From a virus: a stretch of 64,000 bases of DNA. Location of the stretch: IMG/VR virus record IMGVR_UViG_3300045988_142718, one strand, 5' to 3'. Positions 23,290 to 46,237 of this stretch are shown in pieces; the stretch's first letter is position 1; every line of letters begins with the position of its first letter. The notes below the pieces were generated by a model that was not told the origin of the DNA, ran no database searches, and saw only the letters and a program-made list of their open reading frames with translations. The translations under genes were made by a program, and so were the position numbers.

Positions 23290-23290
23290 A

Positions 23291-27203: not shown

Positions 27204-27205
27204 CC

Positions 27206-28036: not shown

Positions 28037-28037
28037 T

Positions 28038-28931: not shown

Positions 28932-29722
28932 GAATCTACACTTCAAGTTATGAATTAATGTCGGAGACTATGCGGAACTGTATTGAGATGGGTTCTATAG
29001 TTAGACCCAAATCTTATCAGAACAAAAACATTGAAGGACAAGAGGATTACATTACAAAAGAAGTAATCTGTCATCAGTACTGTTTAACTTCTTTGGGAGA
29101 CCCAAAATGGTTATTCTTAGCTGATAAAAGGAGTAAACAATGGGTAGAAGAGGAATTCAAGGAAAGAATCCATGATCCTTTAGAGAGCCCAGATAAATTC
29201 TCCCATATTAACCCAGGATCAGCATTCCTTATCAGAGAAGATGTTTGGAGACCATTCTTAGTAAATGGGAAATTCGATTATACCTACAATGAAAGATTAA
29301 GATTTGGATGGACTGATTCTAAAGGAATTAATCACCAAGATCGGATTTGGGATGCTTTAAAAGCAGTAAGGGATGAGTTAATTAGGAACCCAGATACTCG
29401 CCAGGCAGTAATCCCAATCTTTCATCCGACAGATGTAAAATATATTGGAGGAGAAAGAAGAGTACCTTGCTCAATGTATTATGACTTCTTAATCCGAGAA
29501 ATAAAAGGTAAAAAGAGATTACACATCTGTTATCACCAAAGGTCATCCGATTTGGTAACTCATTTTGGTAATGATGTATACCTTGCATGGAAACTTATGG
29601 AGTACATGGCTGAGCAAACAGGGAATGAACCAGGATATTTATATCACACTATCGATTCCCTCCATTCATATAAAAAGGACTGGGTATTACTCAAACAATG
29701 TTTGGATGATATCACAGAATGA
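28928..29722 (+). CDS. Thymidylate synthase family enzyme (dUMP/dCMP C5 methylase or hydroxymethylase)
   Basis: RNPDTRQAVIPIFHP, VPCSMYYDF, ICYHQRSSDLVTHFGNDVYLAWKLM and DSLHSY parallel ThyA NPDSRR, PCH, YQRSCD, PFNIASY and DTHLY. Confidence 0.8.
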   Translation: MRIYTSSYELMSETMRNCIEMGSIVRPKSYQNKNIEGQEDYITKEVICHQYCLTSLGDPKWLFLADKRSKQWVEEEFKERIHDPLESPDKFSHINPGSAFLIREDVWRPFLVNGKFDYTYNERLRFGWTDSKGINHQDRIWDALKAVRDELIRNPDTRQAVIPIFHPTDVKYIGGERRVPCSMYYDFLIREIKGKKRLHICYHQRSSDLVTHFGNDVYLAWKLMEYMAEQTGNEPGYLYHTIDSLHSYKKDWVLLKQCLDDITE

Positions 29723-29803
29723 ATGAATAATTGGGAAAAAGAATGGATTAAAACTTTAGCCTCTATCATGATTTGGTAGAGGCTTCTTAATTTATATAAG
29801 AAT

Positions 29804-32800
29804 ATGGGCAAACCAAAAACAAAATATCACATCTTGGAGAACGAGCAACAATTAGATATGTTAATTGATGCTTGTAAGAAAACTGGATATGCTTCGGTAG
29901 ACTTTGAGACTACTGGTAATCGAATATATAATAATGATTTTTATCCTACGATTTTAGGGGTATGCTTCGAACCAGGTAGGGCAGGAGTAATCCCTTTAGG
30001 TCATTTCGATTCGAAATTTAAAAAATCCTGGAAAACAAAGCTTCAGAAATTTGGAGAAGAAGTTATTGCTAACGAAAATATTGTTAAGGTTGCATGGAAT
30101 GCTAAATTTGATATGCAAGTATTTCACAAATATGGTATCTTTCATAAAGGTAGGTTATTTGATGGGATGCTTGCTAAATATGTTTTGGATGAGGCTAAGC
30201 CAAATGATCTAAAGTCCATGGTTAGAAGGTTCCTTCCTAAATTTGGAGATTACGAAGAAGATTACGAGGGATGTAATCTACCCTGGGATCAAAAACCTTT
30301 ATTAGGATTATCCCAGTACTGTGCTATAGATACTGATATGTGTTTAAGATTATTCCTATTCTTCGAAAAGAAGATGATGGATAAGAAATTCTATCATCTA
30401 TTCAGAAATCTTATTATGCCAGCTTCTAACCTATTAACAAAGGTAGAGACAAGAGGACAAAGACTTGATAAAGAATGGCATGGGAAATTAATGGGGGAAT
30501 ATCCAAGAAGGATACTAGAAGCAGAAACCAAGGTAAGAGCCCTTAAAAAGGTAAAGAGATTTGAGAAATCCCTCATCCAACAGAGATTGGATAAAGCAAT
30601 ATCGAAGATAGAAGAAGAGATCAGAGAATCTAAGAAAGTAATAAAAACATCAGATGATTCTCGAAAAATTGCTTCTGCTGAAAGGTCAATTAAAAATAGA
30701 GAAGAAAAGATTGCCAGATTAATGGCTGGAGAATTTAATACTAAATCAGAGAAAGCCATAATAGAACCCATAAATTTTGGGTCAGCTTCACAAATGACAC
30801 AACTCCTTTTCACTGATCCAAAAGGATTCAGATTTCCAGTAGTAAAATATACACAAAAAGATAAAAGGGATACCGATAACCCTTCTTCATCAGAAGCAGT
30901 ATTATTGGAATTACAAAAAACAGATAAAACTGGATTTATTGATACGCTTCTAGAATTAAGGGGACTTAAACAGATTAATAATATGTTTGTAAAGGGATTT
31001 GCAAACTTAGTTCAAGATGATGGCAGATTGCATCCAAAATTTAATATTCATGGTACTCGTACAGGGAGATTATCATCAGCAGACCCAAACAGTCAGCAGC
31101 TCCCCAGGGTTGCAACGGATCCAACAATTAGACGTTGTTTGGTTGCATCTCCAGGTAGACTCTATCTAATGATGGATTATAGCCAATGTATAGATGGGGA
31201 TTCTTATATCTTTTGTAATACCGGAATAAAGAAGTTAAAAGAGATTATTCCTGGGAAAGATAAAATTTGTATGATTGACCCCCAGCATAAAAACAAACAC
31301 CGAGTTCTCAATATAAAGGTTCTTGCAAATAAGGGTAAGGCAGAATGCCTAAGGATTACAACAAATACTGGTAGGCAACTGATATTAACAGAAGAACATC
31401 CAGTAAAAACTAAACAAGGATTTACATTAGCTAAAGACCTTAAATTAAATGGTACATTATATATCGAAAACTTATTCGGTACTAAATCTGTTGGTAGGCT
31501 TCTCATAAATTCAGATGAAGCATACATTGCGGGATTATTCTATGGTGATGGTCATTACCCTAAAGAAAAATCTGGTAAAAGAAAACCAACTGATATGTCC
31601 ATATTCTTTTCAACTGGATCGGACAGAGAGGAATTACAACCTTTACTGGATAATTACTTTGGTTGTGAATTCTATGGGCCAAAAAATACTTCAAGGGGTA
31701 TTAGAGGTCATAGTGATAAGGTTCTCTCTTTTTATAAGAAATACCCAAAGAAGGATTCTCATGAAATGGAAATCCCAAAGAGGATCCTAAAGTCGGACTT
31801 CGAATCCAAGATGAATTTTATTGGAGGTCAAATTGACTCAGATGGTTCTATTGGTAATGGTAGGTTTAGGTATACTTCTGCTTGTGAACCTTATATTCGA
31901 CAATTACAACTACTCTTTCAATCAGTTGGGTTTCATGGTATAATCAGAAGTACAACTACGATTTTAAATGAGAATGAGTATACAGAATATCATTTAATCG
32001 TAAATTATGGGTTATCCAGACTTAAGCCCTACTTGAGACTTAAAAGAAAAAAACAAGAAATTATTGATTGGGAATTGAGCAAACAATATGCCGTCCCTGC
32101 AAATAAAACCTCTCACTGTTCCACACAAAGAATACCTTTAGAAATTTATCAAGATTTGCCCAGAACTTCAGAATTTCATAAAACTTATAGGAATTCTTTA
32201 AGAAAGGGTAGACTTATACACAGTACATTAGAAACATATATTGATGAACTTTCTGAACTTGATTCTAGATGGTTGGATGTACATCATTTTATGTATGAGC
32301 AAATTACTAACATAGAAAAGGTTGGTAAACGAGAAGTATACGATATGGAAGTTGAAAACTTACATGAATTTAATCCCAATGGTATCCGGGTTCATAACTG
32401 TGAACTTAGACTAATGGCTCACCTATCAAAATGTAAAGGTTTGTTGGAAGCATTTGCAAAAGGTTGGGATCCTCACTTATCAGTAGCATGTAAAAAATAT
32501 GGAGTAAATTACGATGATATTTATCCAATATATAAAGATGAACAACATCCAGATTATACCACATGGAAAATTCGAAGAAAGCAAGCTAAGCACATTGTTT
32601 TCGGATGTATCTATCATATTGGTGCAGCTAAACTTGCAGAAGAACTTTCAGACCCAAAAACAGGGTTAGTAGTAACACCAAAAGAATCACAGGGATTCTT
32701 GGATGATTTTTTTAAGGACTTCCCAGAAGTAAAGAAGTTCATGGACAATCAGATGAAGTTTATCCATAAGCATGGATACATAAAAACATTATTCGGTAGA

Positions 32801-33307
32801 AAAAGAAGATGCCCAGAGATCTTTGGTGATAATCAGATGCAAATTGTAGCTGCTGAGAATGCCGCAATCAATACCCCATCACAGTCTGCTGCTTCTGATA
32901 TGGCATTGTTTACATCAATCCTAATTGATGAGCTCATTCAAAAAGGAGAATTTCCAGATTTACAAGAAGTAGGTACTGTCCATGACTCCATATATTTTGA
33001 TACATTACCTCAAGACATCAATCCAAAGACCGTATATCAACTTTGGGACATGGCAAGAAATCCCAGTACAAAAGAATGGTTCGGATTCCAAATCGATGAC
33101 ATAGATATGTCAATGGATTTCGAAGTAGGAAGGTCCCAGGGAGAAGAATTACCCTTTGCAGTGGGATATGATTATAATCGATTATTAAATTTCAAAGGGG
33201 AATGGAAAGGGTCCAAGGAAGAAGAATATTATTTTTCACTGGTAAACAAATGTAAATCAGTAGATATCAAGGACTATCCAAAGGTTTACCCAGAGTATTT
33301 CAAGTGA
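29804..33307 (+). CDS. polA: Family A DNA polymerase with 3'-5' exonuclease, intein-interrupted
   Basis: Exo motifs SVDFETTG, NAKFDMQV and YCAIDTD. Motif A is DYSQ|intein|CELRLMAH, motif B is RRKQAKHIVFGCIYHIG and motif C is TVHDS. Confidence 0.9.
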   Translation: MGKPKTKYHILENEQQLDMLIDACKKTGYASVDFETTGNRIYNNDFYPTILGVCFEPGRAGVIPLGHFDSKFKKSWKTKLQKFGEEVIANENIVKVAWNAKFDMQVFHKYGIFHKGRLFDGMLAKYVLDEAKPNDLKSMVRRFLPKFGDYEEDYEGCNLPWDQKPLLGLSQYCAIDTDMCLRLFLFFEKKMMDKKFYHLFRNLIMPASNLLTKVETRGQRLDKEWHGKLMGEYPRRILEAETKVRALKKVKRFEKSLIQQRLDKAISKIEEEIRESKKVIKTSDDSRKIASAERSIKNREEKIARLMAGEFNTKSEKAIIEPINFGSASQMTQLLFTDPKGFRFPVVKYTQKDKRDTDNPSSSEAVLLELQKTDKTGFIDTLLELRGLKQINNMFVKGFANLVQDDGRLHPKFNIHGTRTGRLSSADPNSQQLPRVATDPTIRRCLVASPGRLYLMMDYSQCIDGDSYIFCNTGIKKLKEIIPGKDKICMIDPQHKNKHRVLNIKVLANKGKAECLRITTNTGRQLILTEEHPVKTKQGFTLAKDLKLNGTLYIENLFGTKSVGRLLINSDEAYIAGLFYGDGHYPKEKSGKRKPTDMSIFFSTGSDREELQPLLDNYFGCEFYGPKNTSRGIRGHSDKVLSFYKKYPKKDSHEMEIPKRILKSDFESKMNFIGGQIDSDGSIGNGRFRYTSACEPYIRQLQLLFQSVGFHGIIRSTTTILNENEYTEYHLIVNYGLSRLKPYLRLKRKKQEIIDWELSKQYAVPANKTSHCSTQRIPLEIYQDLPRTSEFHKTYRNSLRKGRLIHSTLETYIDELSELDSRWLDVHHFMYEQITNIEKVGKREVYDMEVENLHEFNPNGIRVHNCELRLMAHLSKCKGLLEAFAKGWDPHLSVACKKYGVNYDDIYPIYKDEQHPDYTTWKIRRKQAKHIVFGCIYHIGAAKLAEELSDPKTGLVVTPKESQGFLDDFFKDFPEVKKFMDNQMKFIHKHGYIKTLFGRKRRCPEIFGDNQMQIVAAENAAINTPSQSAASDMALFTSILIDELIQKGEFPDLQEVGTVHDSIYFDTLPQDINPKTVYQLWDMARNPSTKEWFGFQIDDIDMSMDFEVGRSQGEELPFAVGYDYNRLLNFKGEWKGSKEEEYYFSLVNKCKSVDIKDYPKVYPEYFK
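31187..32398 (+). mobile_element. Class 1 intein with LAGLIDADG homing endonuclease in Pol A motif A
   Basis: 404 codons. It starts CIDGDSYIF, has block B LILTEEHPV and ends GIRVHN, followed by Cys+1. LAGLIDADG boxes are YIAGLFYGDGHY and FIGGQIDSDGSI. Excision restores DYSQ-CELR. Confidence 0.85.
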
Positions 33308-33341
33308 ACTAATTAAATTAAATTTTAAACATACATATATT

Positions 33342-33575
33342 ATGAAAGATGAAAAACGAGGGATAATCATATCCCTAATAATTTGGGTTTTACTTATGTT
33401 TATGTCCATTACTCGATGGATGGGTGATGGAATCCTAAAAGAGATTGGGGATTACATTGCTATCACATTTGGCGTAATAATTACTCTGTTGGTGGGAATA
33501 GGAACTTGGAGTATGAGATCATTTATTAAACAATATGGAGGAACAGAAGATGAGGATAGTACAAAGAGGAATTAA
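33342..33575 (+). CDS. Small membrane protein (two TM helices)
   Basis: Hydrophobic segments GIIISLIIWVLLMFMSI and IAITFGVIITLLVGIGTW. Confidence 0.55.
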   Translation: MKDEKRGIIISLIIWVLLMFMSITRWMGDGILKEIGDYIAITFGVIITLLVGIGTWSMRSFIKQYGGTEDEDSTKRN

Positions 33576-33837
33576 TCTTAGGGTAACTAAACCTAAGCCC
33601 ATAATTTGCCCCAAATGCGGATGTGCTTTTGAAGTACAGAGTCCCAGGGATGTAATCCATTCAGTTCATCCAGTTAATACAAATTTCGTTGAACAGATGA
33701 TTGTTATATGCCCAAATTCTTCCTGTAGATTTGAACATAGACTTTCTTTTGAAAAGATCAAATCTATAAAACAGAGCTTTCCAGATTATCCATGGGATAA
33801 TGGGTCCAATACATCAATAGACACCATAACTACCTAA
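33535..33837 (+). CDS. Hypothetical zinc-ribbon-like protein
   Basis: Contains CPKCGC...CPNSSC. The gene overlaps the upstream ORF, so the start is uncertain. Confidence 0.5.
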   Translation: MEEQKMRIVQRGINLRVTKPKPIICPKCGCAFEVQSPRDVIHSVHPVNTNFVEQMIVICPNSSCRFEHRLSFEKIKSIKQSFPDYPWDNGSNTSIDTITT

Positions 33838-33842
33838 GATTT

Positions 33843-34289
33843 ATGAGGGATTCCAGTATAAAAGAACTTAAGAGGGAGTCCTCTATAAATCACCTAACAG
33901 TAAGGGTAAGAGGTAAAAAACTCGATATAGACCTATCAAAGGAATTGGCAATTAATGAAACTTCCATTAATAAACTGATCTCAGAAAATCCTTCAAGTTA
34001 CTCCTTAATCTCAATTTTAAAATCCAAGGCAGTAGCCGAGAGGGATCAATTAGAAAGGGAAAAGGATAGGATCTTTTCTCAAGTTTATGTTTCTGTGGTA
34101 GACAGTAATCCTAAAGCTACAAAAGAATACGCAACACATAAAGCAAATGCTAACACAAAATATCAAGTTGCAAATGATAAATTTTTGGAAGCTAAGGAAT
34201 ACGCAGATAAATTAATTTCTATCTGTAAAGCTTTTGAAATGAAAGCTCAACTACTACAAACATTCTCATCCAATATCAGAAAAGAGTGA
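33843..34289 (+). CDS. Hypothetical coiled-coil protein
   Basis: 148-aa ORF in the co-oriented gene string. Confidence 0.5.
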   Translation: MRDSSIKELKRESSINHLTVRVRGKKLDIDLSKELAINETSINKLISENPSSYSLISILKSKAVAERDQLEREKDRIFSQVYVSVVDSNPKATKEYATHKANANTKYQVANDKFLEAKEYADKLISICKAFEMKAQLLQTFSSNIRKE

Positions 34290-34326
34290 ACACTATTTAT
34301 TAATCACATAAAATTATTATCTTATT

Positions 34327-34689
34327 ATGAATGTTATTCAGAACTTACTTACTAAAGAAGCTGCATTAAGAGTATCTCAGAATATTCCAGGTACTCCAAC
34401 TGAAGATCGGATCCTTTTAGCAGTACCTAAAGATGATGCAAGGACTGCCAGTGGTTTAATCATTCCAGGTAAACCAGAAGATTATCCCAGAAAAGGGGTA
34501 ATCGTAAAAATGGGATTAATGGAGCAAGACAGAAAGATCAATAAACATTTAGAAATTGGTCAAATCGTTACTTATGGGAATTACGCTGGAAAGGATATTT
34601 CTTTCGATAATGGATATTCTTTAGAATCCGTTAAATTTGTGGTACTCTCAATTGAAGAGGTTATCTATATAGAACAAAACAATCATTAA
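34327..34689 (+). CDS. groES: Co-chaperonin GroES/Cpn10-like
   Basis: DRILLAVPKDDARTASGLIIPGKPEDYPRKGVIVKMG and IGQIVTYGNYAG...VVLSIEEVIYI parallel GroES DRVIVK..KSAGGIVL..G.V.AVG and VGD.V....Y. Confidence 0.75.
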   Translation: MNVIQNLLTKEAALRVSQNIPGTPTEDRILLAVPKDDARTASGLIIPGKPEDYPRKGVIVKMGLMEQDRKINKHLEIGQIVTYGNYAGKDISFDNGYSLESVKFVVLSIEEVIYIEQNNH

Positions 34690-34703
34690 TATTTTGATAT
34701 ATC

Positions 34704-35483
34704 ATGAAGAAAGTAAAAACAGAAAAGAAAGGTCTTTCCATGAGGGAAAAACTTTTGGCTAGAAAAAAAGAGCTGGAGAAGAAAGGATCCGGTGGTGGAA
34801 TGATTTATCCCAAAGAGGGAACCATTCGCTTCAGAATAAAGGATCCGGGAGAAGATTGCGAACTAGCTATCGAAATTATTCAGTTCTACTTAGGGCCAAA
34901 ATTAGGTGGAGTAATCTCTCCAGCTACCTTCAACGAAGATTGCCCATTCATGGAGAAATACCTGGAACTAAAGGAAAGTAAGGATGAAGATGATAAACTT
35001 CTTGCAAAGAAACTGGTTCCAAAAAGAAAATATGTAATCGCAGTAGTTGCATATAAAGATGAAAAGGGAAAAGAAGTCGATGAACAGAACATTGATAAAC
35101 CAATGTTAATCCCCAAACAAGCTTACCAGGATATCATTGATCTCTACTTGGATGAGGATGAATGGGGAGATATGACTTCCATCAAAAATGGATACGATTT
35201 GAAATTAACCCGTTCTGGTAAAGGTCAAATGGATACCACTTATACCATTTCACCATGTCAGAAAAAACCTCTGGATAAGAAATATGCTAAGCCAGTTAAT
35301 CTTGAGGAAATGGTAAGAAAACATATCCTTCCTTACGATGAACTAGAGGATAAATTAAACGAATTTCTTTGTGGTGGGGTTGATGATGATGATGATGAAG
35401 ATGATACTCCAAAAAAGAAAAAGAAATCCTTAAAGGACAAGGATAAGAAGAAAAAGAAAAAAGCTAAAGGCTCTGATATTTAA
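34704..35483 (+). CDS. Single-stranded DNA-binding protein, gp32-like (putative)
   Basis: It lies adjacent to recA. GTIRFRIKDPGED...EDCPF...RKYVIAVVAY...GYDLKLTRSG resembles the gp32 core, followed by an acidic DDDDDEDD run and a Lys tail. Confidence 0.55.
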   Translation: MKKVKTEKKGLSMREKLLARKKELEKKGSGGGMIYPKEGTIRFRIKDPGEDCELAIEIIQFYLGPKLGGVISPATFNEDCPFMEKYLELKESKDEDDKLLAKKLVPKRKYVIAVVAYKDEKGKEVDEQNIDKPMLIPKQAYQDIIDLYLDEDEWGDMTSIKNGYDLKLTRSGKGQMDTTYTISPCQKKPLDKKYAKPVNLEEMVRKHILPYDELEDKLNEFLCGGVDDDDDEDDTPKKKKKSLKDKDKKKKKKAKGSDI

Positions 35484-35510
35484 AAAATCCATATCACTCG
35501 TAATAAAGTT

Positions 35511-35548
35511 AAAGGGAGTATGCCTTCAATTGGGTTGCTCCCTTTTTT
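35511..35548 (+). terminator. Intrinsic terminator
   Basis: Stem aaagggag / ctcccttt followed by T's. Confidence 0.8.
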
Positions 35549-35573
35549 AATCTAAAACAAATCATCATACACT

Positions 35574-37847
35574 ATGGCAAAGAAAGTAAAGATAGGGATA
35601 AAGGTCCCAACATCCAGCGAGCTTAATAGAAGGTATGGGAATTTATTAATTAATCCCAGTACACAAGAAAGACCCAAGTTATGGTTACCCTCAAGATTCT
35701 TAGCTTTAAATTATCAGTATGGTGGAGGAATCCCTTTTGGTAAGATACTGGAAGTCATGGGCCAAGAATCAAGTGGGAAAGCAGTTCCTTTGGATTCTCC
35801 AGTTTTAACCCCTACTGGATATAAATTAATGGGAGAATTATCTCTATCAGATAAAGTAATGGACCCAGTTTCTGGGGATCCAATCTCCATTATTGGAATA
35901 TACCCTCAAGGGTTAAAACGAGTATACAAGGTTACATTTAGAGATGGTGCTTCAGCAGAATGCTCAGAGGATCATTTATGGGAAGTACAATTCAGATCTC
36001 ACAATCAGTATAAGTCTCAAGTATTAACCCTAAAAGAGATTTTAGAAAAAGGGTACAGAACAAAAAGGGCTTCTGGTAAAGGTAAATTTAAATATAAATA
36101 TAACATACCAAGTACCATACCGTTAAACTTTGAAAAAAAAGAGTTACCCATTCATCCATATATATTGGGATACATATTAGGTGATGGAGGTTTAGGTAGA
36201 GCAAATTATATTATGTTTAATATTGGATTAGAAGATGCTGATTCATTTAAACATAATATTTCTAAGTTCCTTAAAGAAGGGGCTGAATTAGAAGATAAGG
36301 GCATCTATGAAAATCCATTTGGGAAAACTCATAGATTTATCTTAAAGGGGTATTCAAAGGAAATAAGATCCTTATGCTTAGAGGGGAAATTATCCTCAGA
36401 TAAGTTTATCCCGGAAGATTACCTTTGGTCTTCAGTAGAAGATAGGAAGTACTTATTATCGGGATTACTTGATTCTGATGGTACTATTGGTGAACAGCAC
36501 AATCGAGCAAAATACTCCTCACGATTTAAGTTCTCATCCACTTCTTCAAAGATGATAAAACAGTTAGTACAAGTAGTACGATCACTTGGGGGATTTATAA
36601 CAGAACCAAAATCGAAGGTTCGAGAACGTCAGTTCGAGGGTTATGAAAAAAGAATTTCAAAGGAGATTAGAACTGGAGGTAGATTGCCATTTAATCCATT
36701 CATGTTAGAGAGAAAAAGAAAACAGTATCAAGTAAAAATAGAGAACCAAACCAAATCCGCTAATTATAGAAGGTCCATTATCGATATCTCATATATTGGT
36801 AAAAAAGAATGTCAATGTATAAAGGTAAGTTCTGAAAGAGGGTTATTCATGTTGAATGATTTCATTGTTACTCATAATACTCTGGTAGCTTATGACTTTG
36901 CATATTGTACCCAACAATTGGGAGGCCATGTTATTTGGGTTGATGCCGAGCAATCTTGGGATAATTCATGGGCAGAACAAAACGGAATAGAATTGGATAA
37001 AGTTACAATCATCAGTTCAACCGAGATAGAAACAATTTCTGATGCTATTGCCGATTTATCCATTCTATGGAGAAGCAAGTTAACTCATAATGAACCAATC
37101 CTTCTAGTAGTGGATTCTATAGCTGCTATGGACTGTACAGAAAACATTAATATAAAAATGACCGATTGTAAAGCCGAGATGGGGGGCAGAGCTAAGGCAT
37201 TGTATAAAATGTTTAGGATCAGAACAGAACTTCTCTCTAAGCTGGGCATCACTCAAATTTATATCAATCAATTAAGGGTAGCTTTAAATGTGGGATTTGG
37301 TCAAGATAACACTACTTCAACTGGAGGGAAAGCTCTTGGATTCTATGCTTCTATCCGTTCTGCATTTTATGCTGGAAAACAAGTTACTAAAAAGGTAAAG
37401 GGTAAAGAAAGAAAGGTAGGGAAGTTAGTAAGTATACGCCCAATTAAGAACAAGGTATCACCCTTGAGGAATACAATCTCTAAAGCTCCCATATATTTCA
37501 ATCCAAAATACGTTGAATATGTGGGTTTTGATAGATATCATGGATTTGCAGATATTCTGGTTGAAGAAGACGTATTGGAGAAAACCTCTGGAGGCATCTA
37601 TAAGTATAAGGGAAAAACAGTTGCAAGAGGTGAAGAGAAATTTCAATCTGTAGTAGAAGAGGATGATAAGCTTAGAAGAAAATTGATTAAAGCTTGTGGA
37701 ATAAACACTATCAGTGTTACCCAGAGTAAAATTGATGAGCTTGTAGAAAAGGGTATAAACCTCTTCCCAGTAGATGGAAATTTGGATTATGAATCTCAAT
37801 CCGATGATTCAGAAGATGAAGAAGAGGAAGAAGAATTCGAAGATTAA
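35574..37847 (+). CDS. recA: RecA-family recombinase, intein-interrupted
   Basis: GGIPFGKILEVMGQESSGK|intein|TLVAYDF. Other RecA motifs are VDAEQS, LLVVDSIAAM, YINQLR, TTSTGGKALGFYASIR and IKNKVSP. The C-terminal tail is acidic. Confidence 0.9.
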   Translation: MAKKVKIGIKVPTSSELNRRYGNLLINPSTQERPKLWLPSRFLALNYQYGGGIPFGKILEVMGQESSGKAVPLDSPVLTPTGYKLMGELSLSDKVMDPVSGDPISIIGIYPQGLKRVYKVTFRDGASAECSEDHLWEVQFRSHNQYKSQVLTLKEILEKGYRTKRASGKGKFKYKYNIPSTIPLNFEKKELPIHPYILGYILGDGGLGRANYIMFNIGLEDADSFKHNISKFLKEGAELEDKGIYENPFGKTHRFILKGYSKEIRSLCLEGKLSSDKFIPEDYLWSSVEDRKYLLSGLLDSDGTIGEQHNRAKYSSRFKFSSTSSKMIKQLVQVVRSLGGFITEPKSKVRERQFEGYEKRISKEIRTGGRLPFNPFMLERKRKQYQVKIENQTKSANYRRSIIDISYIGKKECQCIKVSSERGLFMLNDFIVTHNTLVAYDFAYCTQQLGGHVIWVDAEQSWDNSWAEQNGIELDKVTIISSTEIETISDAIADLSILWRSKLTHNEPILLVVDSIAAMDCTENINIKMTDCKAEMGGRAKALYKMFRIRTELLSKLGITQIYINQLRVALNVGFGQDNTTSTGGKALGFYASIRSAFYAGKQVTKKVKGKERKVGKLVSIRPIKNKVSPLRNTISKAPIYFNPKYVEYVGFDRYHGFADILVEEDVLEKTSGGIYKYKGKTVARGEEKFQSVVEEDDKLRRKLIKACGINTISVTQSKIDELVEKGINLFPVDGNLDYESQSDDSEDEEEEEEFED
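35781..36878 (+). mobile_element. Intein with LAGLIDADG endonuclease in the RecA Walker A loop, with class 3-like signature
   Basis: 366 codons. It starts AVPLDSPVLTPTG (Ala1), has block B GASAECSEDHLW and block F ECQCIKV, and ends IVTHN with Thr+1. LAGLIDADG boxes are YILGYILGDGGL and LLSGLLDSDGTI. Confidence 0.8.
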
Positions 37848-37975
37848 AGTAGTGGTAGCCATTGTCCCAAAAGGGAGGATGGTACCTTGCTTTCAAGTAG
37901 TATCTGCAGGCTCATTAAATAATCCCAGAGTTATATTTTTATATCAAGAATTACAATGAAAGAAGAAAGGATATT

Positions 37976-38557
37976 ATGAAAAAGAGAGATATTATTATAG
38001 ATAAAGGTATATCTGGTGCTTACTATGCTGATAAGTTTTTACCAGATAACCTACCTGGCTACCCCGGTTATCATATATCCAAGTTCGGCAAAGTTTATAG
38101 TCGATGGGATATCAATGGTAAAGGGGTACTGAGGGTTCGATGGCATTTAAAAAGGCCTCAACCTAACCGGTTAGGTAGGCTATTAGTAGGTATTACGAAT
38201 GGAAAGAAAACTAAGAAATTTCAAGTACATCGATTAGTAGCAATGGTATACATTCCAAATCCCAATAATTATCCAAATGTTTGCCATAAAGATAACAATC
38301 CCCAAAATAATCGTGCAAGTAATCTATATTGGGGAACTCAAAAAATGAACATGAACCAGGCATCACTGGAGGGTAGGATGGTATCCAAGGTAAAGGGGTT
38401 ACCAAAGAAACTTTCTGATTTACAGATCAGTTATATACCAAAATTATTTGAGAGAGGGTTTTCATATAGAGATATCTCTTATATTTTTAACAGAGAAGCT
38501 TCTACTGCTACAATTAAGAGGTGGCATTTTTTGTATATTAAAAAATATGGATTATGA
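37976..38557 (+). mobile_element. Free-standing HNH homing endonuclease gene
   Basis: GYHISKFGKVYS...VHRLVAMVYIPNP...CHKDNNPQNNRASNLYWGTQKMN is HNH_3/NUMOD-type. The gene is inserted between recA and the FEN gene. Confidence 0.85.
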
Positions 38558-39474
38558 TAAAAAGTGAAGACCGGTTGTTATTGGTGGATGGGAATAATGT
38601 TATTTTGAGAGCTTACTTTTCCATGAAGAATAAAGGGTTCTCAAACGGTAAGATTCCAACGGGTGCAGTATATGGGTTCTTTAAAATCCTATACTCAAAC
38701 ATTGTAAGGTTTAAAATCACTTCAGTAGTAGTATGTTTCGACTGTCATAGGTCTAAACTAAGGACTGATATGTACCCAGAGTATAAAGCTCATAGAAAAA
38801 GGATTTCAGAAGATTGGGATCAGATTTTCAAGGTACAGTTTCCCATTATTAAACGTATCTTAAGGAACTTAGGAATTGTTTATGTATGGGATAACAAAAG
38901 GATCAATGAAATGGAAAGTGATGATTATCTTGCATTGCTTTATCAAAAGAATTGCTTATCTCAAGTATACCTATTATCATCAGATGAAGATTTTGTTCAA
39001 CTTCTAGCATTTCCAAATATCAAATTGATAAATCCTTCTAAAGATATGCTAGTAACACCTAAAAATTGTAAAGATGTATATGGGTATACACCAGAACAAG
39101 CAGTGGATATGAAAATCCTATGTGGAGACACATCTGATAACATTTCAGGAATAAAAGGGGTAGGTCCTAAAACTGCTTTAAAATTCTTAGAAGAGTATGG
39201 AAGTATAAGGGAGTTCTTAAAATCTGATCATGGAGATAAGAAATTCCCTAAATCAGAATTAGAACCAATATTCAAACGAAACCAACTGTTGATAGATCTG
39301 TTCTATTATCTAACAAAGGTTAATCCAGAAGTAATCCCATATCATGATAAAAAACATGCAATGGATAAGATTACCTTAAATGAGATATTTGAGAAATATC
39401 AACTCAAATCTTTCATGTCATCAGAATTTATGAAACCATTCAAACAATTAAAAACTTACAAATATGAAGAATAA
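38554..39474 (+). CDS. 5'-3' exonuclease / flap endonuclease (T4 RNase H, T5 D15-like)
   Basis: LLVDGNNVILRAYF at the PIN-like N-terminus and GDTSDNISGIKGVGPKTALKFLEEYGS as the H3TH motif. Confidence 0.85.
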   Translation: MIKSEDRLLLVDGNNVILRAYFSMKNKGFSNGKIPTGAVYGFFKILYSNIVRFKITSVVVCFDCHRSKLRTDMYPEYKAHRKRISEDWDQIFKVQFPIIKRILRNLGIVYVWDNKRINEMESDDYLALLYQKNCLSQVYLLSSDEDFVQLLAFPNIKLINPSKDMLVTPKNCKDVYGYTPEQAVDMKILCGDTSDNISGIKGVGPKTALKFLEEYGSIREFLKSDHGDKKFPKSELEPIFKRNQLLIDLFYYLTKVNPEVIPYHDKKHAMDKITLNEIFEKYQLKSFMSSEFMKPFKQLKTYKYEE

Positions 39475-40174
39475 GAGGATAGTAATCTGTGGTGCAAGTG
39501 GGGTTGGCAAATCAACCATAGCCAGAGCTATTTCAGAGGAGTTTGGAATTAAATATGTTTCTGGGAGTTTATATGATTTAATGCCCAATCTCCCAAAAAA
39601 TCATTATGATTTAAATACCAAGTATGATACCAATGAAAAACACAAAAGGAATTTCCAAATCCTAAACCTAAGGTATCATCAGTATATGGAATTAGAAGGT
39701 AGCTTTGTTACAGATCGTAGTCTGTATGATACTGCGGGTTATGAGATCCAAGAAAATTCCATGGGACTCCCAACCTGTGAAACACATGATTTTATCGAAA
39801 AGATAAATGCTATCAATTATGATCTTATGTTAAAGGAAAAAGAGATAACTCATATTATCTTCATTCCTTACAAAAGAGCTCAATTTGAAAGATGGGAATT
39901 CGAAAACGATGGCAAACGTATTACCAATAAATACTTCCAATACATGGTAAGTGCTTGTCAAACTTTGGTATTCAATGTCATTGGAGTAGAGCAATCTTTT
40001 GGCCAGCTTATCAGAAACATATTCAGTAAAAACAAGGTTGGTACTTTATTTGTACATGATACCGACTGGGAAGTAGAAGACGGATATGATCCAATCGATG
40101 GGATTAAATTCTTAGAATTAAATGAGATGGATCATAATAAACGAATGAAAGCAATTAGAAAGTTTTTAAAATGA
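39464..40174 (+). CDS. P-loop nucleotide kinase (dNMP kinase-like)
   Basis: Walker A in IVICGASGVGKSTIARAI. The size is typical of a small kinase. The substrate cannot be read from the sequence. Confidence 0.5.
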   Translation: MKNKRIVICGASGVGKSTIARAISEEFGIKYVSGSLYDLMPNLPKNHYDLNTKYDTNEKHKRNFQILNLRYHQYMELEGSFVTDRSLYDTAGYEIQENSMGLPTCETHDFIEKINAINYDLMLKEKEITHIIFIPYKRAQFERWEFENDGKRITNKYFQYMVSACQTLVFNVIGVEQSFGQLIRNIFSKNKVGTLFVHDTDWEVEDGYDPIDGIKFLELNEMDHNKRMKAIRKFLK

Positions 40175-41151
40175 AAAAGGAAGTTATAGCATTAGCTTTC
40201 TCGGATATTCATCTAAATAATTGGACCAAGTTCAATCAAAATGGGAGTCGAACAGATTCCCATTTTTTGATTTTAGACAAAATTTTCAGAGAAGCAATAA
40301 AACAAAAGATCCCAGTTTTCTTTTGCGGTGATTTAGTACATACTCCAGAAACAATCAATATGGAGTTATATATTAAGATGTCCAAGTATTTCGATAAATA
40401 TTCAAATGAGCCAAAGCTTCAAGTATTTGGAATCTCTGGTAATCATGAAATACCAAATTTGAACACATATGATCAAAGGTCAGATTCTTTCTTAACAGCT
40501 CTTGATCTTCAATATCATTGGTTTCATTGTATGGATTGGAAAACTATCCAGTGGCCAACATTTGCATTGCATGGCATACCATATCTGGATCATAATGTTG
40601 GTTTAAAGCAAGCATTAAAAGAAACAAAAGTAATTAAGGGTAAAAAGAATATCCTATTACTACATACTGATTATGCTGGAGCCCGAGATACAGATGGTAG
40701 AGAAGTTGGTTCTGTAGAAAACTTCGATAGAACATTACTCAGAAAGTTCGATTTGGTATTATGTGGACACATACATAAATTTCAGAAATTAGAGAAACAT
40801 GTATACATGGTTGGAGCACCTTTACAACAAAGGTTCACAGATGAAGGAAACAAAATGGGTTATCTTAAGATTTATTCTGATATGTCCATTGAGTTTGTTC
40901 ATATTAAAGGATTGCCTAAGTTTAAGACAGTGGGCAGTGTGGAGGAAATTAAAGAGGACGGAAATTATTATAGAGTTCTCAAACCTAAGGCCTCTAATGA
41001 TGAGTTCAGCTCAGAAAGCAAGGTTATACAGAAAAACTATTCGAAAGTTAAAGCAGGTAGACGATATCTTCGAATACAAGGTATCAAAGATCCTGAAAAG
41101 AAGAGACTTCTTATTGAAATACTTGAAAAGGCAGAGGAGGAAGAAGTATGA
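40171..41151 (+). CDS. Mre11/SbcD-like nuclease (gp47-like)
   Basis: Calcineurin-type phosphoesterase motifs SDIHLN, CGDLVH, SGNHE, LLLHTD and CGHIH. Confidence 0.85.
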   Translation: MKKEVIALAFSDIHLNNWTKFNQNGSRTDSHFLILDKIFREAIKQKIPVFFCGDLVHTPETINMELYIKMSKYFDKYSNEPKLQVFGISGNHEIPNLNTYDQRSDSFLTALDLQYHWFHCMDWKTIQWPTFALHGIPYLDHNVGLKQALKETKVIKGKKNILLLHTDYAGARDTDGREVGSVENFDRTLLRKFDLVLCGHIHKFQKLEKHVYMVGAPLQQRFTDEGNKMGYLKIYSDMSIEFVHIKGLPKFKTVGSVEEIKEDGNYYRVLKPKASNDEFSSESKVIQKNYSKVKAGRRYLRIQGIKDPEKKRLLIEILEKAEEEEV

Positions 41152-42869
41152 TTAAATTCATGAATATGGAGATAAAAGGATTCTGTTCTATTCAGGATCT
41201 TAGTATAACATTGGGTACAGAAGGAATCCATCTGGTTAAAGGAAATACGGGTTCGGGGAAAAGCACCTTCTTGAATGCTATCAGTTGGTGTTTATATGGT
41301 AAAACATTAAAAAACATAAAAGATGTAAATACCTTAGAATCCTGGAGACCCAATGATTATAAGGGTACAATGGTAAAAATCTTTTTTGAGAAAGATGGCT
41401 CAATACATCAGATAATACGATGTCAAGAATATAAAGGTAAAGTAGAAGAGGCTAAAGGAGGAAACAGATTACTCTATCTAATCGATGGAGCCCAAGTAAA
41501 AGAAAAATCCAAACCAAAGATTCAAGAACTTATCGAAAAAGATTTGGGTAGTAGCTTTAGGCTTTTCAAAAACACAATCACATTCGGTCAAAGACTCCAG
41601 CGTATAGCTGAATCATCTGGTCCTGATAAAAAGGCTTTGTTCGAAGAAGCTTTCGAAATAGGTTATATTACTGTAGCAAAGAACATTGCTATGGTAATGA
41701 AAAAAGAAACACAACAGAAATATGATGAAGCATACTATCGAGTTAAATCCATAACTGAAAGATATGAAGATGCAAGAAAAAGTTATGAAAAATTCCGAGA
41801 TAGTGAAAGGAATTATAAAAAGATCTTCAGAGAACAGGTTGATCAGATCGAAAATAAAATTACATTGAGACATGAGAAACTTGTTAGATTGGAGAAAAAG
41901 TTCGATGAAAACCTGCTAACTAAGCGCTTAAAAAATTTGGAGCATCTTAAGAGAGAGTTAACCAAACTTAAAAAAGAAGAACTTAATACCAATCAACAAC
42001 TAACCAAAATCACAAGTAAAAAAGGGGTCCTGGAATTTATTGAATCCATCATGGGTTTATTACAGAAAGGGAAATACAAGGTTGCATATAATGACCTTAA
42101 AACCTTATCCTCACATTTCAAATCATCGGAAGAGATTAAGGATAAAAAATTTAAGACCCAGTCAAAAATCTACGATGTAGAATCTTTTTGTAGAGAACAA
42201 GAAGATATTAAAGATGATATTACTACTTTAAAGGGTGAAATTACTAACCTGATAAAAGAAAAGGGAAACTTAAGATTAGAGAGAATAAACATAATCTCAC
42301 CTCAGTATCGAAAACAGAGAAAGGAATTAAAAGCTAAGTTAGAAAAACATCGTAAAAATTGTGAAAATCAGAAAAAGGCATTAGAAAACCTAAATTGGGT
42401 AATCAATGACCCATTAAGTAATTCTGGGATGAAAACTTTTATTTTCGATGCTTCATTAAAATCCTTGAACGATTGTTTGGATGATTACAGTAGTATAATC
42501 GGATTTAATATAAAGTTCACAGTAAACACAGAATCATCAAAAAGGGATTTTGTAACCTTAATCGATAAAGATGGCCAATTGCTTCAATACGAAGAATTAT
42601 CCGGAGGTGAACAACAATTGGTAAATGTGGCTATGGCATTTGCATTACACTCTATCACAAGCGTATCATTGGGAATAAATTTACTTTTCTTGGATGAACT
42701 TTTCGAAAACTTAGATAAGGCAAATATCGAAATCGTAATGGACTTAGTGAAATATATAGGTAATGGGAAAAGCATTTATATAATCACTCACCAAGAGAAT
42801 TTTTCAATCTCAGGTTCTAATACGATTAAGGTAAAAAAAGACAATGGTATTACCACTATAATCCCATAA
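41148..42869 (+). CDS. Rad50/SbcC-like ATPase (gp46-like)
   Basis: Walker A GNTGSGKST, a long central coiled coil, signature LSGGEQQL and Walker B LLFLDE. Confidence 0.85.
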   Translation: MIKFMNMEIKGFCSIQDLSITLGTEGIHLVKGNTGSGKSTFLNAISWCLYGKTLKNIKDVNTLESWRPNDYKGTMVKIFFEKDGSIHQIIRCQEYKGKVEEAKGGNRLLYLIDGAQVKEKSKPKIQELIEKDLGSSFRLFKNTITFGQRLQRIAESSGPDKKALFEEAFEIGYITVAKNIAMVMKKETQQKYDEAYYRVKSITERYEDARKSYEKFRDSERNYKKIFREQVDQIENKITLRHEKLVRLEKKFDENLLTKRLKNLEHLKRELTKLKKEELNTNQQLTKITSKKGVLEFIESIMGLLQKGKYKVAYNDLKTLSSHFKSSEEIKDKKFKTQSKIYDVESFCREQEDIKDDITTLKGEITNLIKEKGNLRLERINIISPQYRKQRKELKAKLEKHRKNCENQKKALENLNWVINDPLSNSGMKTFIFDASLKSLNDCLDDYSSIIGFNIKFTVNTESSKRDFVTLIDKDGQLLQYEELSGGEQQLVNVAMAFALHSITSVSLGINLLFLDELFENLDKANIEIVMDLVKYIGNGKSIYIITHQENFSISGSNTIKVKKDNGITTIIP

Positions 42870-42889
42870 TACTTAAAATTCAATACCAA

Positions 42890-43402
42890 ATGTCAGTGAA
42901 CAGTAAAAATAAAGGATCCAAAGCTGAAAGGGAACTTGCTAAGGTATGGGAAAGATGGACTGGCTATAAATTTTCTCGAACTCCCATGTCAGGAGGTTGG
43001 GCTAAATCTATCGAATCTTTTGGAGATTTAACCTGTACTGATCCGAAACATAGCCACAAATTCCCTTTCAGTGTTGAATGTAAATCCTATAAGGGTATAA
43101 CATTCAATGATATTCTAAAAGGTACAAAATCCGATGTACTTAGGTTTTGGGAACAAGCCTCATATGATGCTAACCGATGTAATAAAATCCCATTATTATT
43201 TATGAGAGAGAATGGGATGGCAAAGCAAACCTATTTTTTAGTATGCGATGTAAAAGTGGGAAAGCTAATCGTAGATTTATCCAAGAAAAGCTTAGACATG
43301 ATTGCTTTGAGCTGTTCATTGGGGGATCTACTGGTGTTCAATTCAAACGACTTAACGGCGATTCCCTATAATGAATTCTATAAAGCAGTAAGGAAATTAT
43401 GA
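42890..43402 (+). CDS. PD-(D/E)xK nuclease, Hjc-like Holliday junction resolvase candidate
   Basis: NKGSKAERELAKVWERWTGY...GDLTC...FSVECKS fits the KGxxxERE...D...ExK layout. Confidence 0.6.
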   Translation: MSVNSKNKGSKAERELAKVWERWTGYKFSRTPMSGGWAKSIESFGDLTCTDPKHSHKFPFSVECKSYKGITFNDILKGTKSDVLRFWEQASYDANRCNKIPLLFMRENGMAKQTYFLVCDVKVGKLIVDLSKKSLDMIALSCSLGDLLVFNSNDLTAIPYNEFYKAVRKL

Positions 43403-44115
43403 AAAAAAGAGAATATGTATGGTGTATATGCCATATAGATAATAAACTTTATGGTTCAATCGAAGCTGAGCTTAAAAAAGCAAAATATGATGATATCAAA
43501 GTATACATTCCAACACTTTCAATATTAAAAAAACGAAGTAAAGGAAAAGATATCTATGAGGATGTACCCATGCTATTCTCTTATGGCTTTATCAGAATGA
43601 GAAAAGAAAAAGCATTCTCAAGGGTATTCCTACATCGATTAAAAAAGGTGATCCCAGGAATCCATTCTTGGGTAAAGTCTCCAGAGACAATGCACCCAAG
43701 GAAAATAAAAGCTCGGATTCAAAATGCCGAAGATTGGGATGACTTCTCTATTGTAGCAACAGTATCCAGAAAAGAAATCAGAAGATTAAAAAGACTCTCC
43801 AAAGAAAACAAGGTTTATTCTAAGTATGATATTGCCCAATTAACAGTGGGAAGTTATATCGTATTAAGAGGGTATCCTTTTGATGGTGTTCAAGCAACAG
43901 TATTAGAGATAAACCTTAACACACAAAATGTAAAGGTAAAATTATTCCCAAATGGGGGTGAAATCGAAATATGGTTACCTTTTGAGAATGTTCTTTACAG
44001 TACATACTTGGATTATGATCCAGATAAATTAGCTTATGATCATGCCGAGGATAATATTAGCAATTCTTATAAATTAACTACAACACAAGAAGAGGACTCA
44101 TTATGGATGGATTAG
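43399..44115 (+). CDS. NusG/UpxY-like transcription elongation factor
   Basis: NGN-like WCICHIDNKLYGSIEAELKK...VYIPTL...VPMLFSYGFIRM. KOW-like LTVGSYIVLRGYPFDGVQATVLEINLNTQNVKVKL. Confidence 0.6.
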   Translation: MKKREYVWCICHIDNKLYGSIEAELKKAKYDDIKVYIPTLSILKKRSKGKDIYEDVPMLFSYGFIRMRKEKAFSRVFLHRLKKVIPGIHSWVKSPETMHPRKIKARIQNAEDWDDFSIVATVSRKEIRRLKRLSKENKVYSKYDIAQLTVGSYIVLRGYPFDGVQATVLEINLNTQNVKVKLFPNGGEIEIWLPFENVLYSTYLDYDPDKLAYDHAEDNISNSYKLTTTQEEDSLWMD

Positions 44116-46189: not shown

Positions 46190-46202
46190 TATATAATATA
46201 TG

Positions 46203-46212
46203 TATATTTGCA
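46203..46212 (+). promoter_or_regulatory. -7 box TATATTTGCA
   Basis: 25 nt upstream of the ATG at 46238. Confidence 0.65.
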
Positions 46213-46237
46213 TCATAAATTAAAATTCAATAAAAAT

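What the first reader, a model, noticed from the sequence alone, without database searches (positions are those of the whole stretch)
35781..36878. RecA P-loop intein with the class 3 (Ala1 plus Trp/Cys/Thr) signature
The RecA-family ORF is split inside Walker A: ...GQESSGK | AVPLDSPVLT...NDFIVTHN | TLVAYDF.... Removing 366 codons restores GQESSGKT, matching RecA GPESSGKT.

The insert has Hint-type ends and two LAGLIDADG boxes. It does not start with Cys, Ser or Thr; residue 1 is Ala and the +1 extein residue is Thr. By eye-alignment to the intein blocks:
- Block B reads GASAECSEDHLW, with Trp at B:12.
- Block F has Cys in ECQCIKV, where class 1 inteins have the F:4 Asp.
- The residue before the penultimate His is Thr (VTHN).

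This combination defines class 3 inteins, whose prototype is the mycobacteriophage Bethlehem DnaB intein. They splice through a block F Cys branched intermediate. I do not recall a class 3 intein in the RecA P-loop, so the insertion site may also be new.
Basis: partly seen in the sequence, partly recalled or inferred. Interest (0 to 1): 0.85.

Follow-up and report, generated by a model that had tools for sequence, protein, structure and literature searches.

The report
Class 3 intein in phage RecA
A gut-phage RecA recombinase gene is interrupted, exactly inside its ATP-binding loop, by a self-splicing protein element of the rarer "class 3" type; the element is real and probably functional, but it belongs to a very large known family that habitually sits in such loops, so it is a nice example rather than a discovery.

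Summary
ORF 35574..37847 encodes a 757-aa RecA. Removing residues 70-435 (nt 35781..36878) restores GQESSGKT, colinear with E. coli RecA GPESSGKT.

The insert is a HINT + LAGLIDADG intein (AlphaFold pLDDT 92.9; PI-SceI-like). It carries every class 3 sequence hallmark: Ala1, His65/Trp67 (B:10/B:12), Cys346 (F:4), Thr364-His365-Asn366 and Thr+1. The assignments rest on alignment to the class 3 MchDnaB1 intein and to gp41-1_WCT. These residues are invariant in 89 homologues of 27-74% identity.

The novelty suggestion does not hold.
- Class 3 inteins were described from the start as mostly P-loop inserts.
- Lys|Thr is called the "classic" P-loop insertion.
- The RecA/RadA P-loop is the published insertion point "c".
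- The intein family is huge: 16,118 representative clusters, in PhoH, AAA_24, SNF2, terminase, DnaB and others.

One thing does seem undescribed: a class 3 occupant of RecA-c. The two published RecA-c2 representatives I checked (T. fusca, E. coli phage-plasmid) are class 1 (Cys1/Asp/Ser) and show no detectable similarity to it in the splicing domain.

Verdict: a new member of a known kind. Splicing itself is inferred, not shown. Interest is low to moderate.

The parts
35574..35780 (+). RecA N-extein (69 aa), ending in the first seven Walker A residues GQESSGK
   Evidence: colinear with E. coli RecA up to Lys of GPESSGK
35781..36878 (+). 366-aa intein (Ala1 ... Thr364-His365-Asn366): HINT splicing domain with a LAGLIDADG homing endonuclease nested inside it
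35781..35783 (+). Ala1 (block A:1), a non-nucleophilic first residue
   Evidence: Position 1 in 89 homologues: A 69, S 4, G 4, Q 3, E 3, R 3, Y 1, F 1. Same-site RecA homologues have A, Q or Y.
35964..35981 (+). Block B core SEDHLW: Ser62 (B:7), His65 (B:10), Trp67 (B:12)
   Evidence: H65 and W67 align with MchDnaB1 H65 and W67 and with gp41-1_WCT H63 and W65. Both are invariant 89/89.
36111..36755 (+). LAGLIDADG homing endonuclease domain (about res 111-325). Motifs lie at 36162..36191 (ILGYILGDGG) and 36453..36485 (LLSGLLDSDGT).
   Evidence: Pfam Hom_end E=2.7e-4. Foldseek to PI-SceI E=2e-16. D135 and D233 are conserved. Domain borders are approximate, read from the model's secondary structure.
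36816..36818 (+). Cys346 (block F:4), the predicted initiating nucleophile
   Evidence: aligned to Cys107 of gp41-1_WCT. Invariant 89/89 and 135/135. The neighbouring C344 is not conserved.
36870..36878 (+). Block G: Thr364 (G:5), His365 (G:6), Asn366 (G:7)
36879..36881 (+). Thr+1. It is both the Walker A Thr of RecA and the predicted second nucleophile.
   Evidence: The +1 residue is T 71 / S 18 in homologues and Cys in none of these 89.
36879..37847 (+). RecA C-extein (322 aa plus stop), with an acidic C-terminal tail

Best explanation
The segment is a mobile, bifunctional class 3-type intein in the recA gene of a human-gut tailed phage. It sits between the Walker A Lys and Thr.

**Predicted splicing pathway** (inferred from the family's published mechanism):
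1. The thiol of Cys346 (block F:4), positioned by His65, Trp67 and Thr364, attacks the Lys(-1)-Ala1 peptide bond. The N-extein is carried as a thioester on the intein.
2. The N-extein is passed to the hydroxyl of Thr+1.
3. Asn366, helped by His365, cyclises and releases the intein.
4. An O-to-N acyl shift forms the Lys-Thr bond and recreates GQESSGKT.

Until this happens the RecA ATP site is split, so recombinase activity should depend on splicing.

**Predicted mobility.** The nested LAGLIDADG endonuclease, with both catalytic Asp intact, is predicted to cut intein-free recA alleles during co-infection and copy the intein in (homing).

**Shown here:** exact junctions, fold, conserved catalytic set, purifying selection, and patchy presence or absence among related phages. 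**Inferred:** splicing, the order of steps, and endonuclease activity.
For: **Junctions and host protein**
- Junctions fixed.

**Block assignment**
- phmmer against PDB gives gp41-1_WCT 6riz (E=1e-9) and the class 3 inteins Msm DnaB1 6bs8 and Mch DnaB1 6rix/6riy as the best matches.
- Residue-for-residue matches: H65, W67, C346, T364.
- PMC7664689 states that the gp41-1_WCT Cys107-His63-Thr123 plus Trp65 superimpose on Mch Cys124-His65-Thr143 plus Trp67.

**Conservation**
- H65, W67, C346, T364, H365 and N366 are invariant in 89 homologues.
- They are near-invariant in 135 intein copies from the 150 best representatives.
- Residue 1 is mostly Ala. The +1 residue is Thr or Ser in all 89 homologues and in 133 of the 135 copies, with 2 Cys.

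**Same-site homologues**
- RecA homologues with the intein at this site, 43-69% identical overall, keep W, C and T while residue 1 varies (A, Q, Y).

**Fold**
- AlphaFold model pLDDT 92.9, pTM 0.92.
- Foldseek: PI-SceI E=2e-16. Among mini-inteins the best are gp41-1_WCT and the class 3 DnaB1 inteins.

**Selection and mobility**
- Against a 69%-identical relative, dN is 0.19-0.28 with dS saturated, in both intein and exteins.
- D135 and D233 of the LAGLIDADG motifs are kept.
- Occupied, empty and doubly occupied alleles occur in syntenic phages.

**Published mechanism**
- PMC2807308, PMC5222942, PMC6195587.
Against: - No experiment. Grafting Ala1 plus WCT onto gp41-1 was not enough for splicing (PMC7664689), so the motif alone does not prove activity.
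- The C-terminal alignment to a solved structure is weak on its own (domain i-Evalue 94). It is anchored mainly by the terminal THN and by family conservation.
- The model gives no coordinates through these tools, so I could not measure the Cys346-to-scissile-bond geometry.
- dS is saturated, so no numerical dN/dS can be given.
- No near-identical (>90%) empty allele was found, so recent homing is not shown.
Confidence: 0.85

Rival explanations
1. A genuine intein that uses a different chemistry: class 2-like direct attack of the +1 residue on the N-terminal junction, or hydrolytic N-cleavage without ligation, as in bacterial intein-like (BIL) domains.
For: Ala1 alone is also compatible with class 2 (PMC2807308). 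The WCT graft on gp41-1 gave mostly cleavage rather than splicing (PMC7664689).
Against: Class 2 (KlbA) inteins lack WCT and, as described in PMC2807308, attack with Cys+1. Here +1 is Thr, and it is Thr or Ser in all 89 homologues, with the full WCT set invariant. Cleavage without ligation would destroy RecA, yet the exteins are under clear purifying selection and align full-length with RecA.
Confidence: 0.05
2. A decayed, non-splicing intein that leaves recA as a pseudogene in this phage.
For: Splicing was not tested. Some relatives show a degenerate endonuclease region (P0036: VLGCILSNVAD, intein 338 aa).
Against: The 757-codon frame is open in a 34% GC genome. All catalytic residues are intact. 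Near-identical copies occur in many samples, including one 90% cluster of 633 sequences. dN is low against saturated dS in both intein and exteins.
Confidence: 0.06
3. The junctions are misplaced and a nearby Cys or Ser is the true residue 1, which would make this a class 1 intein.
For: Four of the 89 family members have Ser at position 1. P0039 reads K|YCANYE, with Cys at position 2.
Against: The window has no Cys or Ser within five residues after Lys (AVPLDS). Empty alleles and E. coli RecA fix the junction at GK|...|T to the residue. Any other start would leave extra residues inside Walker A.
Confidence: 0.02

Closest known systems
Class 3 inteins in the P-loop of RecA-fold helicase DnaB (Msm DnaBi1 / Mch DnaB1 / Mle DnaB; prototype MP-Be DnaB)
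   Same: - Non-nucleophilic residue 1 (Ala).
- His B:10 and Trp B:12, even with the same numbering (H65, W67).
- Block F Cys, and THN followed by Ser or Thr at +1.
- Inserted in Walker A, so the Mg-coordinating Ser/Thr doubles as the +1 nucleophile (PMC6195587).
- N-terminal splicing region aligns at E=1.6e-4 to 3e-3.
   Different: - The host is RecA itself, not DnaB.
- This intein keeps a full LAGLIDADG endonuclease, whereas Msm and Mch DnaB1 are mini-inteins.
- Identity is only about 23-25% over the splicing domain.
- It has a Cys two residues before the catalytic Cys (CxC).
RecA/RadA insertion point 'c' inteins (Topilina et al. 2015, PMC4513877): Pho RadA (c1); T. fusca and E. coli phage-plasmid RecA (c2)
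   Same: Identical insertion point, between Walker A Lys and Thr of a RecA-family recombinase. Thr is at +1.
   Different: The two c2 inteins I examined are class 1. T. fusca reads GK|CLTAD...TRNHPL...TFDLMVP...LSHN|T. E. coli phage Cyrano reads GK|CVTAD...FRHPI...TFDVAMP...ISHN|T. There is no significant similarity in the splicing domain, so this is an independent invasion by another lineage and class.
gp41-1 intein (cyanophage-like, class 1) and its engineered WCT variant (6qaz / 6riz)
   Same: Best sequence match in the PDB (E=1e-9 and 7e-7), covering blocks A, B, F and G. It shares the THN C-terminus.
   Different: gp41-1 is a naturally split class 1 mini-intein with Cys1, Phe at B:12 and Asp at F:4. 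The WCT graft did not splice (PMC7664689).
PI-SceI / VMA-type bifunctional inteins
   Same: Overall architecture: a HINT domain with a nested two-motif LAGLIDADG endonuclease. Top structural match (E=2e-16, TM 0.65).
   Different: Class 1 chemistry (Cys1, Cys+1), about 15% identity, and a different host protein.

Membership tests
Class 3 inteins (Tori et al. 2010, PMC2807308) | Intein residue 1 is not Cys, Ser or Thr | tested here: met
   Ala1. The junction is fixed by colinearity with E. coli RecA and with empty alleles.
Class 3 inteins (Tori et al. 2010, PMC2807308) | Trp at block B position 12 (two residues after the B:10 His) | tested here: met
   W67 aligns with Mch DnaB1 W67 and gp41-1_WCT W65. 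Invariant 89/89 and 132/135.
Class 3 inteins (Tori et al. 2010, PMC2807308) | Cys at block F position 4 (where class 1 inteins have Asp) | tested here: met
   C346 aligns with gp41-1_WCT Cys107 / wild-type Asp107. Invariant 89/89 and 135/135. The pairwise C-terminal alignment is weak by itself.
Class 3 inteins (Tori et al. 2010, PMC2807308) | Thr at block G position 5, before the penultimate His and terminal Asn | tested here: met
   T364-H365-N366. Invariant 89/89.
Class 3 inteins (Tori et al. 2010, PMC2807308) | [quoted passage not shown] | tested here: met
   Thr+1. Family: T 71 / S 18.
Class 3 inteins (Tori et al. 2010, PMC2807308) | Splicing depends absolutely on the block F Cys and passes through a thiol-labile block F branched intermediate | not testable with these tools
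   Needs expression, mutagenesis and mass spectrometry.
HINT-fold inteins with a nested LAGLIDADG homing endonuclease | HINT fold split by an endonuclease domain with two LAGLIDADG helices ending in acidic residues | tested here: met
   Model pLDDT 92.9. PI-SceI E=2e-16. D135 and D233 present. Pfam Hom_end is just above its cut-off, 21.5 against 21.1 bits.
HINT-fold inteins with a nested LAGLIDADG homing endonuclease | Site-specific cleavage of the intein-free allele | not testable with these tools
   Only indirect evidence: patchy distribution of occupied and empty alleles among syntenic phages.
RecA/RadA insertion point c (PMC4513877) | Insertion between the Walker A Lys and Thr of a RecA-family recombinase | tested here: met
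   GQESSGK|...|T aligned to E. coli GPESSGK|T. Same point as T. fusca and E. coli phage Cyrano.
RecA-c2 intein lineage (T. fusca / enterobacterial phage-plasmids) | Sequence homology of the splicing domain to c2 inteins; Cys1, Asp at F:4, Ser at G:5 | tested here: not met
   No significant similarity in the splicing blocks. Different catalytic residues.
Curated intein HMMs (Pfam Intein_splicing / Hint, NCBIfam) | Match above the curated cut-off | tested here: not met
   No splicing-domain model matches; only weak endonuclease-region hits. The class 1 PolA intein in the same window is detected. This reflects poor coverage of this intein family by those models rather than evidence against an intein.

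The most novel reading that the evidence does not exclude
The RecA/RadA Lys|Thr P-loop site has been colonised at least three separate times by unrelated inteins, now including one of a different mechanistic class. In this phage the thiol-initiated chemistry may make recombinase maturation conditional. The catalytic Cys346 sits in a CxC pair with Cys344, which could form a redox- or metal-sensitive switch. Precedents are the disulfide toggle of the class 3 DnaBi1 intein (PMC6195587) and ssDNA-triggered splicing of the class 1 RadA intein (PMC5238726).
Probability: 0.1. Interest if true: 0.5.

Novelty: new member of a known kind. Interest (0 to 1): 0.27.

Why it matters
**Uses**
- It adds a natural, endonuclease-bearing class 3 intein in RecA itself, at the site occupied by well-studied class 1 inteins (Pho RadA, RecA-c2). 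The same extein context could therefore be used to compare class 1 and class 3 chemistry and conditional splicing.
- The related alleles give a compact natural series for studying homing and intein decay in gut phages. They include empty alleles (GKS), occupied alleles (GK|T), doubly occupied alleles, and alleles with a mini-intein at a second site.
- It shows an annotation gap. Pfam and NCBIfam models miss this splicing domain, although about 16,000 representative clusters are related to it. Such precursors are therefore labelled simply "RecA".

**Limit**
It does not change what is known about intein mechanisms or their distribution.

Tried and rejected
- **Genome scan for other RecA P-loop inteins.** I searched genome contigs for I-Y-G-P-E-S-S-G-K followed by a non-A first codon base. 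It gave the T. fusca-type Cys1 inteins but says nothing about whether Ala1 inteins are absent from cellular RecA.
- **Papers not held.** Tori & Perler 2011 (PMC3133030) and the supplement of Tori 2010, which lists the class 3 inteins by host, are not held. I could not check whether any InBase class 3 entry was in RecA.
- **MP-Be DnaB prototype.** I looked for it in AY500153 30-48 kb and found no THN[CST] motif in an ORF over 250 aa. I dropped this and used the solved class 3 structures instead.
- **DNA-level phage search.** Megablast of 15 kb around the gene against GenBank phages gave no match.
- **Plasmid search.** tblastn of the precursor against plasmids found no record with both extein and intein.
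- **dN/dS.** It could not be quantified because dS is saturated against the 69% relative.
- **Second six-frame scan of the window.** A search for further canonical intein C-termini found only the PolA intein.
- **Rejected reading.** I considered that the first Cys of CQC is the nucleophile. It is conserved in only about a third of homologues.
Full report
**1. The observation**

The + strand ORF 35574..37847 is open for 757 codons in a 34% GC window. Its product matches Pfam RecA (PF00154, E=7.7e-29), but only from residue 438 onward. The stretch 35781..36878 translates to 366 residues, AVPLDSPVLT...NDFIVTHN. It is flanked by ...GQESSGK and TLVAYDF....

Joining the flanks gives a 391-aa protein. 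It aligns without a gap across the junction to E. coli RecA: evmGQESSGKTlvay against [15 protein letters not shown]. Mycobacterial and E. coli RecA chains score E=1e-31 to 1e-26, and UvsX only 2e-12.

Intein-free alleles of the same phage RecA read GEESSGKS|LIAY at exactly this point. They come from metagenome proteins P0047 and P0053, IMG/VR loci L129 and L130, and GenBank MT121964. Both junctions are therefore fixed to the residue, and no Cys or Ser lies within reach as an alternative start.

**2. What the insert is**

*PDB sequence search.* A phmmer search of the PDB returns only inteins. The best hits are:
- gp41-1_WCT (6riz, E=1e-9);
- wild-type gp41-1 (6qaz, 7e-7);
- the class 3 DnaB1 inteins of M. 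smegmatis (6bs8, 1.6e-4) and M. chimaera (6rix/6riy, 3e-3).

*Residue mapping.* In those alignments the window's His65 and Trp67 fall on MchDnaB1 His65 and Trp67 and on gp41-1_WCT His63 and Trp65. ECQCIKV falls on ELICIEV, so Cys346 aligns with the engineered Cys107 (Asp107 in the wild type). VTHN falls on LTHN, so Thr364 aligns with Thr123. Beyer et al. (PMC7664689) report that Cys107-His63-Thr123 plus Trp65 of gp41-1_WCT superimpose on the Cys124-His65-Thr143 triad plus Trp67 of MchDnaB1. The mapping to block positions B:10, B:12, F:4 and G:5 is therefore transitive but exact. On its own the C-terminal pairwise alignment is weak (i-Evalue 94).

*Family conservation* supplies the strength.
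- In an alignment of 89 homologues sharing 27-74% identity, the only invariant splicing-domain residues are G13, H65, W67, C346, T364, H365 and N366.
- Residue 1 is Ala in 69; the rest are S, G, Q, E, R, Y or F.
- The +1 residue is Thr in 71 and Ser in 18, and never Cys.
- The same picture holds for 135 complete intein copies in the 150 best representatives of a 1.84-billion-protein library: H 135, W 132, C 135, T 134, N 135; +1 T 100 / S 33 / C 2.

*Structure.* An AlphaFold2 model built on this alignment is confident (pLDDT 92.9, pTM 0.92). Its best structural matches are full-length intein-endonucleases: PI-SceI at E=2e-16 and TM 0.65, then TliVMA and PhoVMA. Among mini-inteins the best are gp41-1_WCT and the class 3 DnaB1 inteins.

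*Endonuclease.* Both LAGLIDADG motifs keep their terminal acidic residues, D135 and D233. These positions are D/E in 85 and D in 83 of the 89 homologues. The homing endonuclease is therefore probably active.

**3. Evidence that it is alive and mobile**

- Near-identical 757-aa precursors occur on many metagenomic contigs of 50-80 kb; one 90% cluster holds 633 sequences.
- More distant RecA homologues (43-69% overall identity) carry a homologous intein at the same site. W, C, T and Thr+1 are intact, but residue 1 is A, Q or Y. This is the class 3 pattern: any non-nucleophile will do at position 1.
- Against a syntenic relative (L122), dN is 0.19-0.28 in intein and exteins while dS is saturated. 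This indicates purifying selection on both, although no ratio can be quoted.
- Gene order is conserved in relatives: PolA, Cpn10, gp32-like SSB, RecA, 5'-3' exonuclease, SbcCD.
- The RecA gene occurs in four states: P-loop intein only; a second-site intein only; both; or a 165-168-aa mini-intein at the second site. Wholly empty alleles also exist.
- Every empty P-loop allele has Ser (TCN or AGT) where occupied alleles have Thr (ACT). This could reflect co-conversion or target-site immunity. I did not resolve it.

**4. Most likely mechanism**

By analogy with MP-Be DnaB, Msm DnaB-1, Mle DnaB and Bvi IcmO (PMC2807308, PMC5222942, PMC6195587):
1. Cys346 attacks the Lys(-1)-Ala1 amide, forming a thioester-branched intermediate on block F.
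2. The N-extein moves to the hydroxyl of Thr+1.
3. Asn366 cyclises.
4. An O-N shift restores the Lys-Thr bond.

Thr+1 is the Walker A residue that coordinates Mg-ATP in mature RecA, just as the P-loop Ser is for DnaBi1 (PMC6195587). The precursor's ATP site is split, so function should require splicing. All of this is inference. PMC7664689 shows that Ala1 plus WCT grafted onto a class 1 scaffold is insufficient, so the motif is a strong predictor but not proof.

**5. Comparison with what is known**

*Literature.*
- Kelley et al. call insertion between the invariant Lys and the nucleophilic Thr the "classic" P-loop insertion (PMC5050341).
- Topilina et al. define insertion point c of RecA/RadA as this very site. 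It is occupied in archaeal RadA (c1) and in bacterial RecA (c2: T. fusca, E. coli, Enterobacter, Salmonella) (PMC4513877).

The insertion site is therefore not new.

*Direct check of c2.* I retrieved two c2 examples.
- T. fusca: GPESSGK|CLTAD...TRNHPL...TFDLMVP...ILSHN|TTVA.
- E. coli phage Cyrano RecA, where Lys64 is followed by a 422-aa insert, matching the published coordinates 65-486: GPPSAGK|CVTAD...FRHPI...TFDVAMP...IISHN|TFLA.

Both are class 1 and show no significant splicing-domain similarity to the window's intein.

*Literature searches.* Four full-text searches found no description of a class 3 intein in RecA. However, the InBase-derived class 3 tables were not available to me.

*Size of the family.* The intein's own family is enormous.
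- It has 16,118 representative clusters at E<=1e-3 and 3,349 at E<=1e-30.
- About two thirds of the copies follow a GK dipeptide.
- Hosts include PhoH, AAA_24 (Sak4-like), AAA_30, SNF2, terminase, thymidine kinase, DnaB, IstB and ABC ATPases.

The window's element is thus an ordinary member that has landed in one more P-loop protein.

**6. Verdict**

The classification as a class 3-type intein passes every sequence-level membership criterion. The mechanistic criterion is untestable here. The suggestion of a new insertion site fails.

What seems undescribed is the pairing of a class 3 intein with RecA-c. This would be a third independent lineage at that site. I rate it a new member of a known kind, with interest about 0.27.

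The most novel reading not excluded is conditional (redox or metal) control through the CxC pair around the catalytic Cys. I give it about 0.1 probability.

Noticed in passing
window 31187..32398 (within ORF 29804..33307, + strand): A second intein in the window. It is a 404-aa class 1 intein (Cys1 ... VHN|Cys+1) with a LAGLIDADG domain. It splits motif A of the family A DNA polymerase (LMMDYSQ|CIDGDS...GIRVHN|CELRLMAH). Pfam Intein_splicing E=2.7e-11, LAGLIDADG_3 E=8e-8.
   Followed up: partly
window 37976..38557 (+): A free-standing HNH homing-endonuclease ORF (PHROG 59, E=1.7e-31) lies between recA and the 5'-3' exonuclease gene. The syntenic relative L122 has no gene at that position, so it looks like another mobile insertion.
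   Followed up: partly
relatives P0025, P0031, P0037, P0040, P0041, P0047, P0053; corresponds to window about 37455..37460 (NVGFGQDNT|TSTGG), which is empty here: Many alleles of this phage RecA carry a second, class 1 intein (Cys1...VVHN|T). It is 350-360 aa with LAGLIDADG_2, or a 165-168-aa mini-intein. The site is NVGFGKDN(T/S)|TTTGG in the L2-loop region, four residues downstream of the actinobacterial RecA-b point (GVMFG|SPETTTGG, L029/L049). It may be an uncatalogued RecA insertion point.
   Followed up: partly
window 36879..36881 versus L121, L123, L129, L130: All intein-occupied alleles have Thr (ACT) as the Walker A residue after Lys. All empty alleles have Ser (TCN or AGT). Possible causes are co-conversion with the intein or endonuclease-resistant target variants.
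   Followed up: no
P0027 (2.5-kb ENA contig): Its N-extein and intein are about 99% identical to the window, but its C-extein belongs to a different RecA lineage (74% extein identity). This is either recombination at the intein or a chimeric assembly.
   Followed up: no
L123 2..2990: In an intein-free-P-loop relative, the PolA gene is broken into several ORFs with a DUF559 (Vsr-like endonuclease) ORF between them. This resembles the 'fractured gene' arrangements described with split inteins.
   Followed up: no
window 35781..36878: Pfam and NCBIfam intein and Hint models do not detect this splicing domain at all. Public precomputed annotation of the homologues lists only RecA, with or without a weak LAGLIDADG hit. 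The family nevertheless has about 16,000 representative clusters.
   Followed up: yes
window 36810..36818: Cys344 lies two residues before the catalytic Cys346 (CQC). About one third of family members share this CxC arrangement. No role is known.
   Followed up: no
window 1..64000: Context is a human-gut tailed phage.
- Tail genes: tape-measure-like, baseplate J, and a Listeria-Bacteroides repeat fibre.
- Replication genes: DnaB-like and SNF2-like helicases, PolA, GroES-like, gp32-like SSB, SbcCD.
- Nearest GenBank relatives are unannotated 'Phage DP SC_*_H4_2017' records from Irish faecal samples.
- There is no DNA-level match in GenBank phages.
   Followed up: partly
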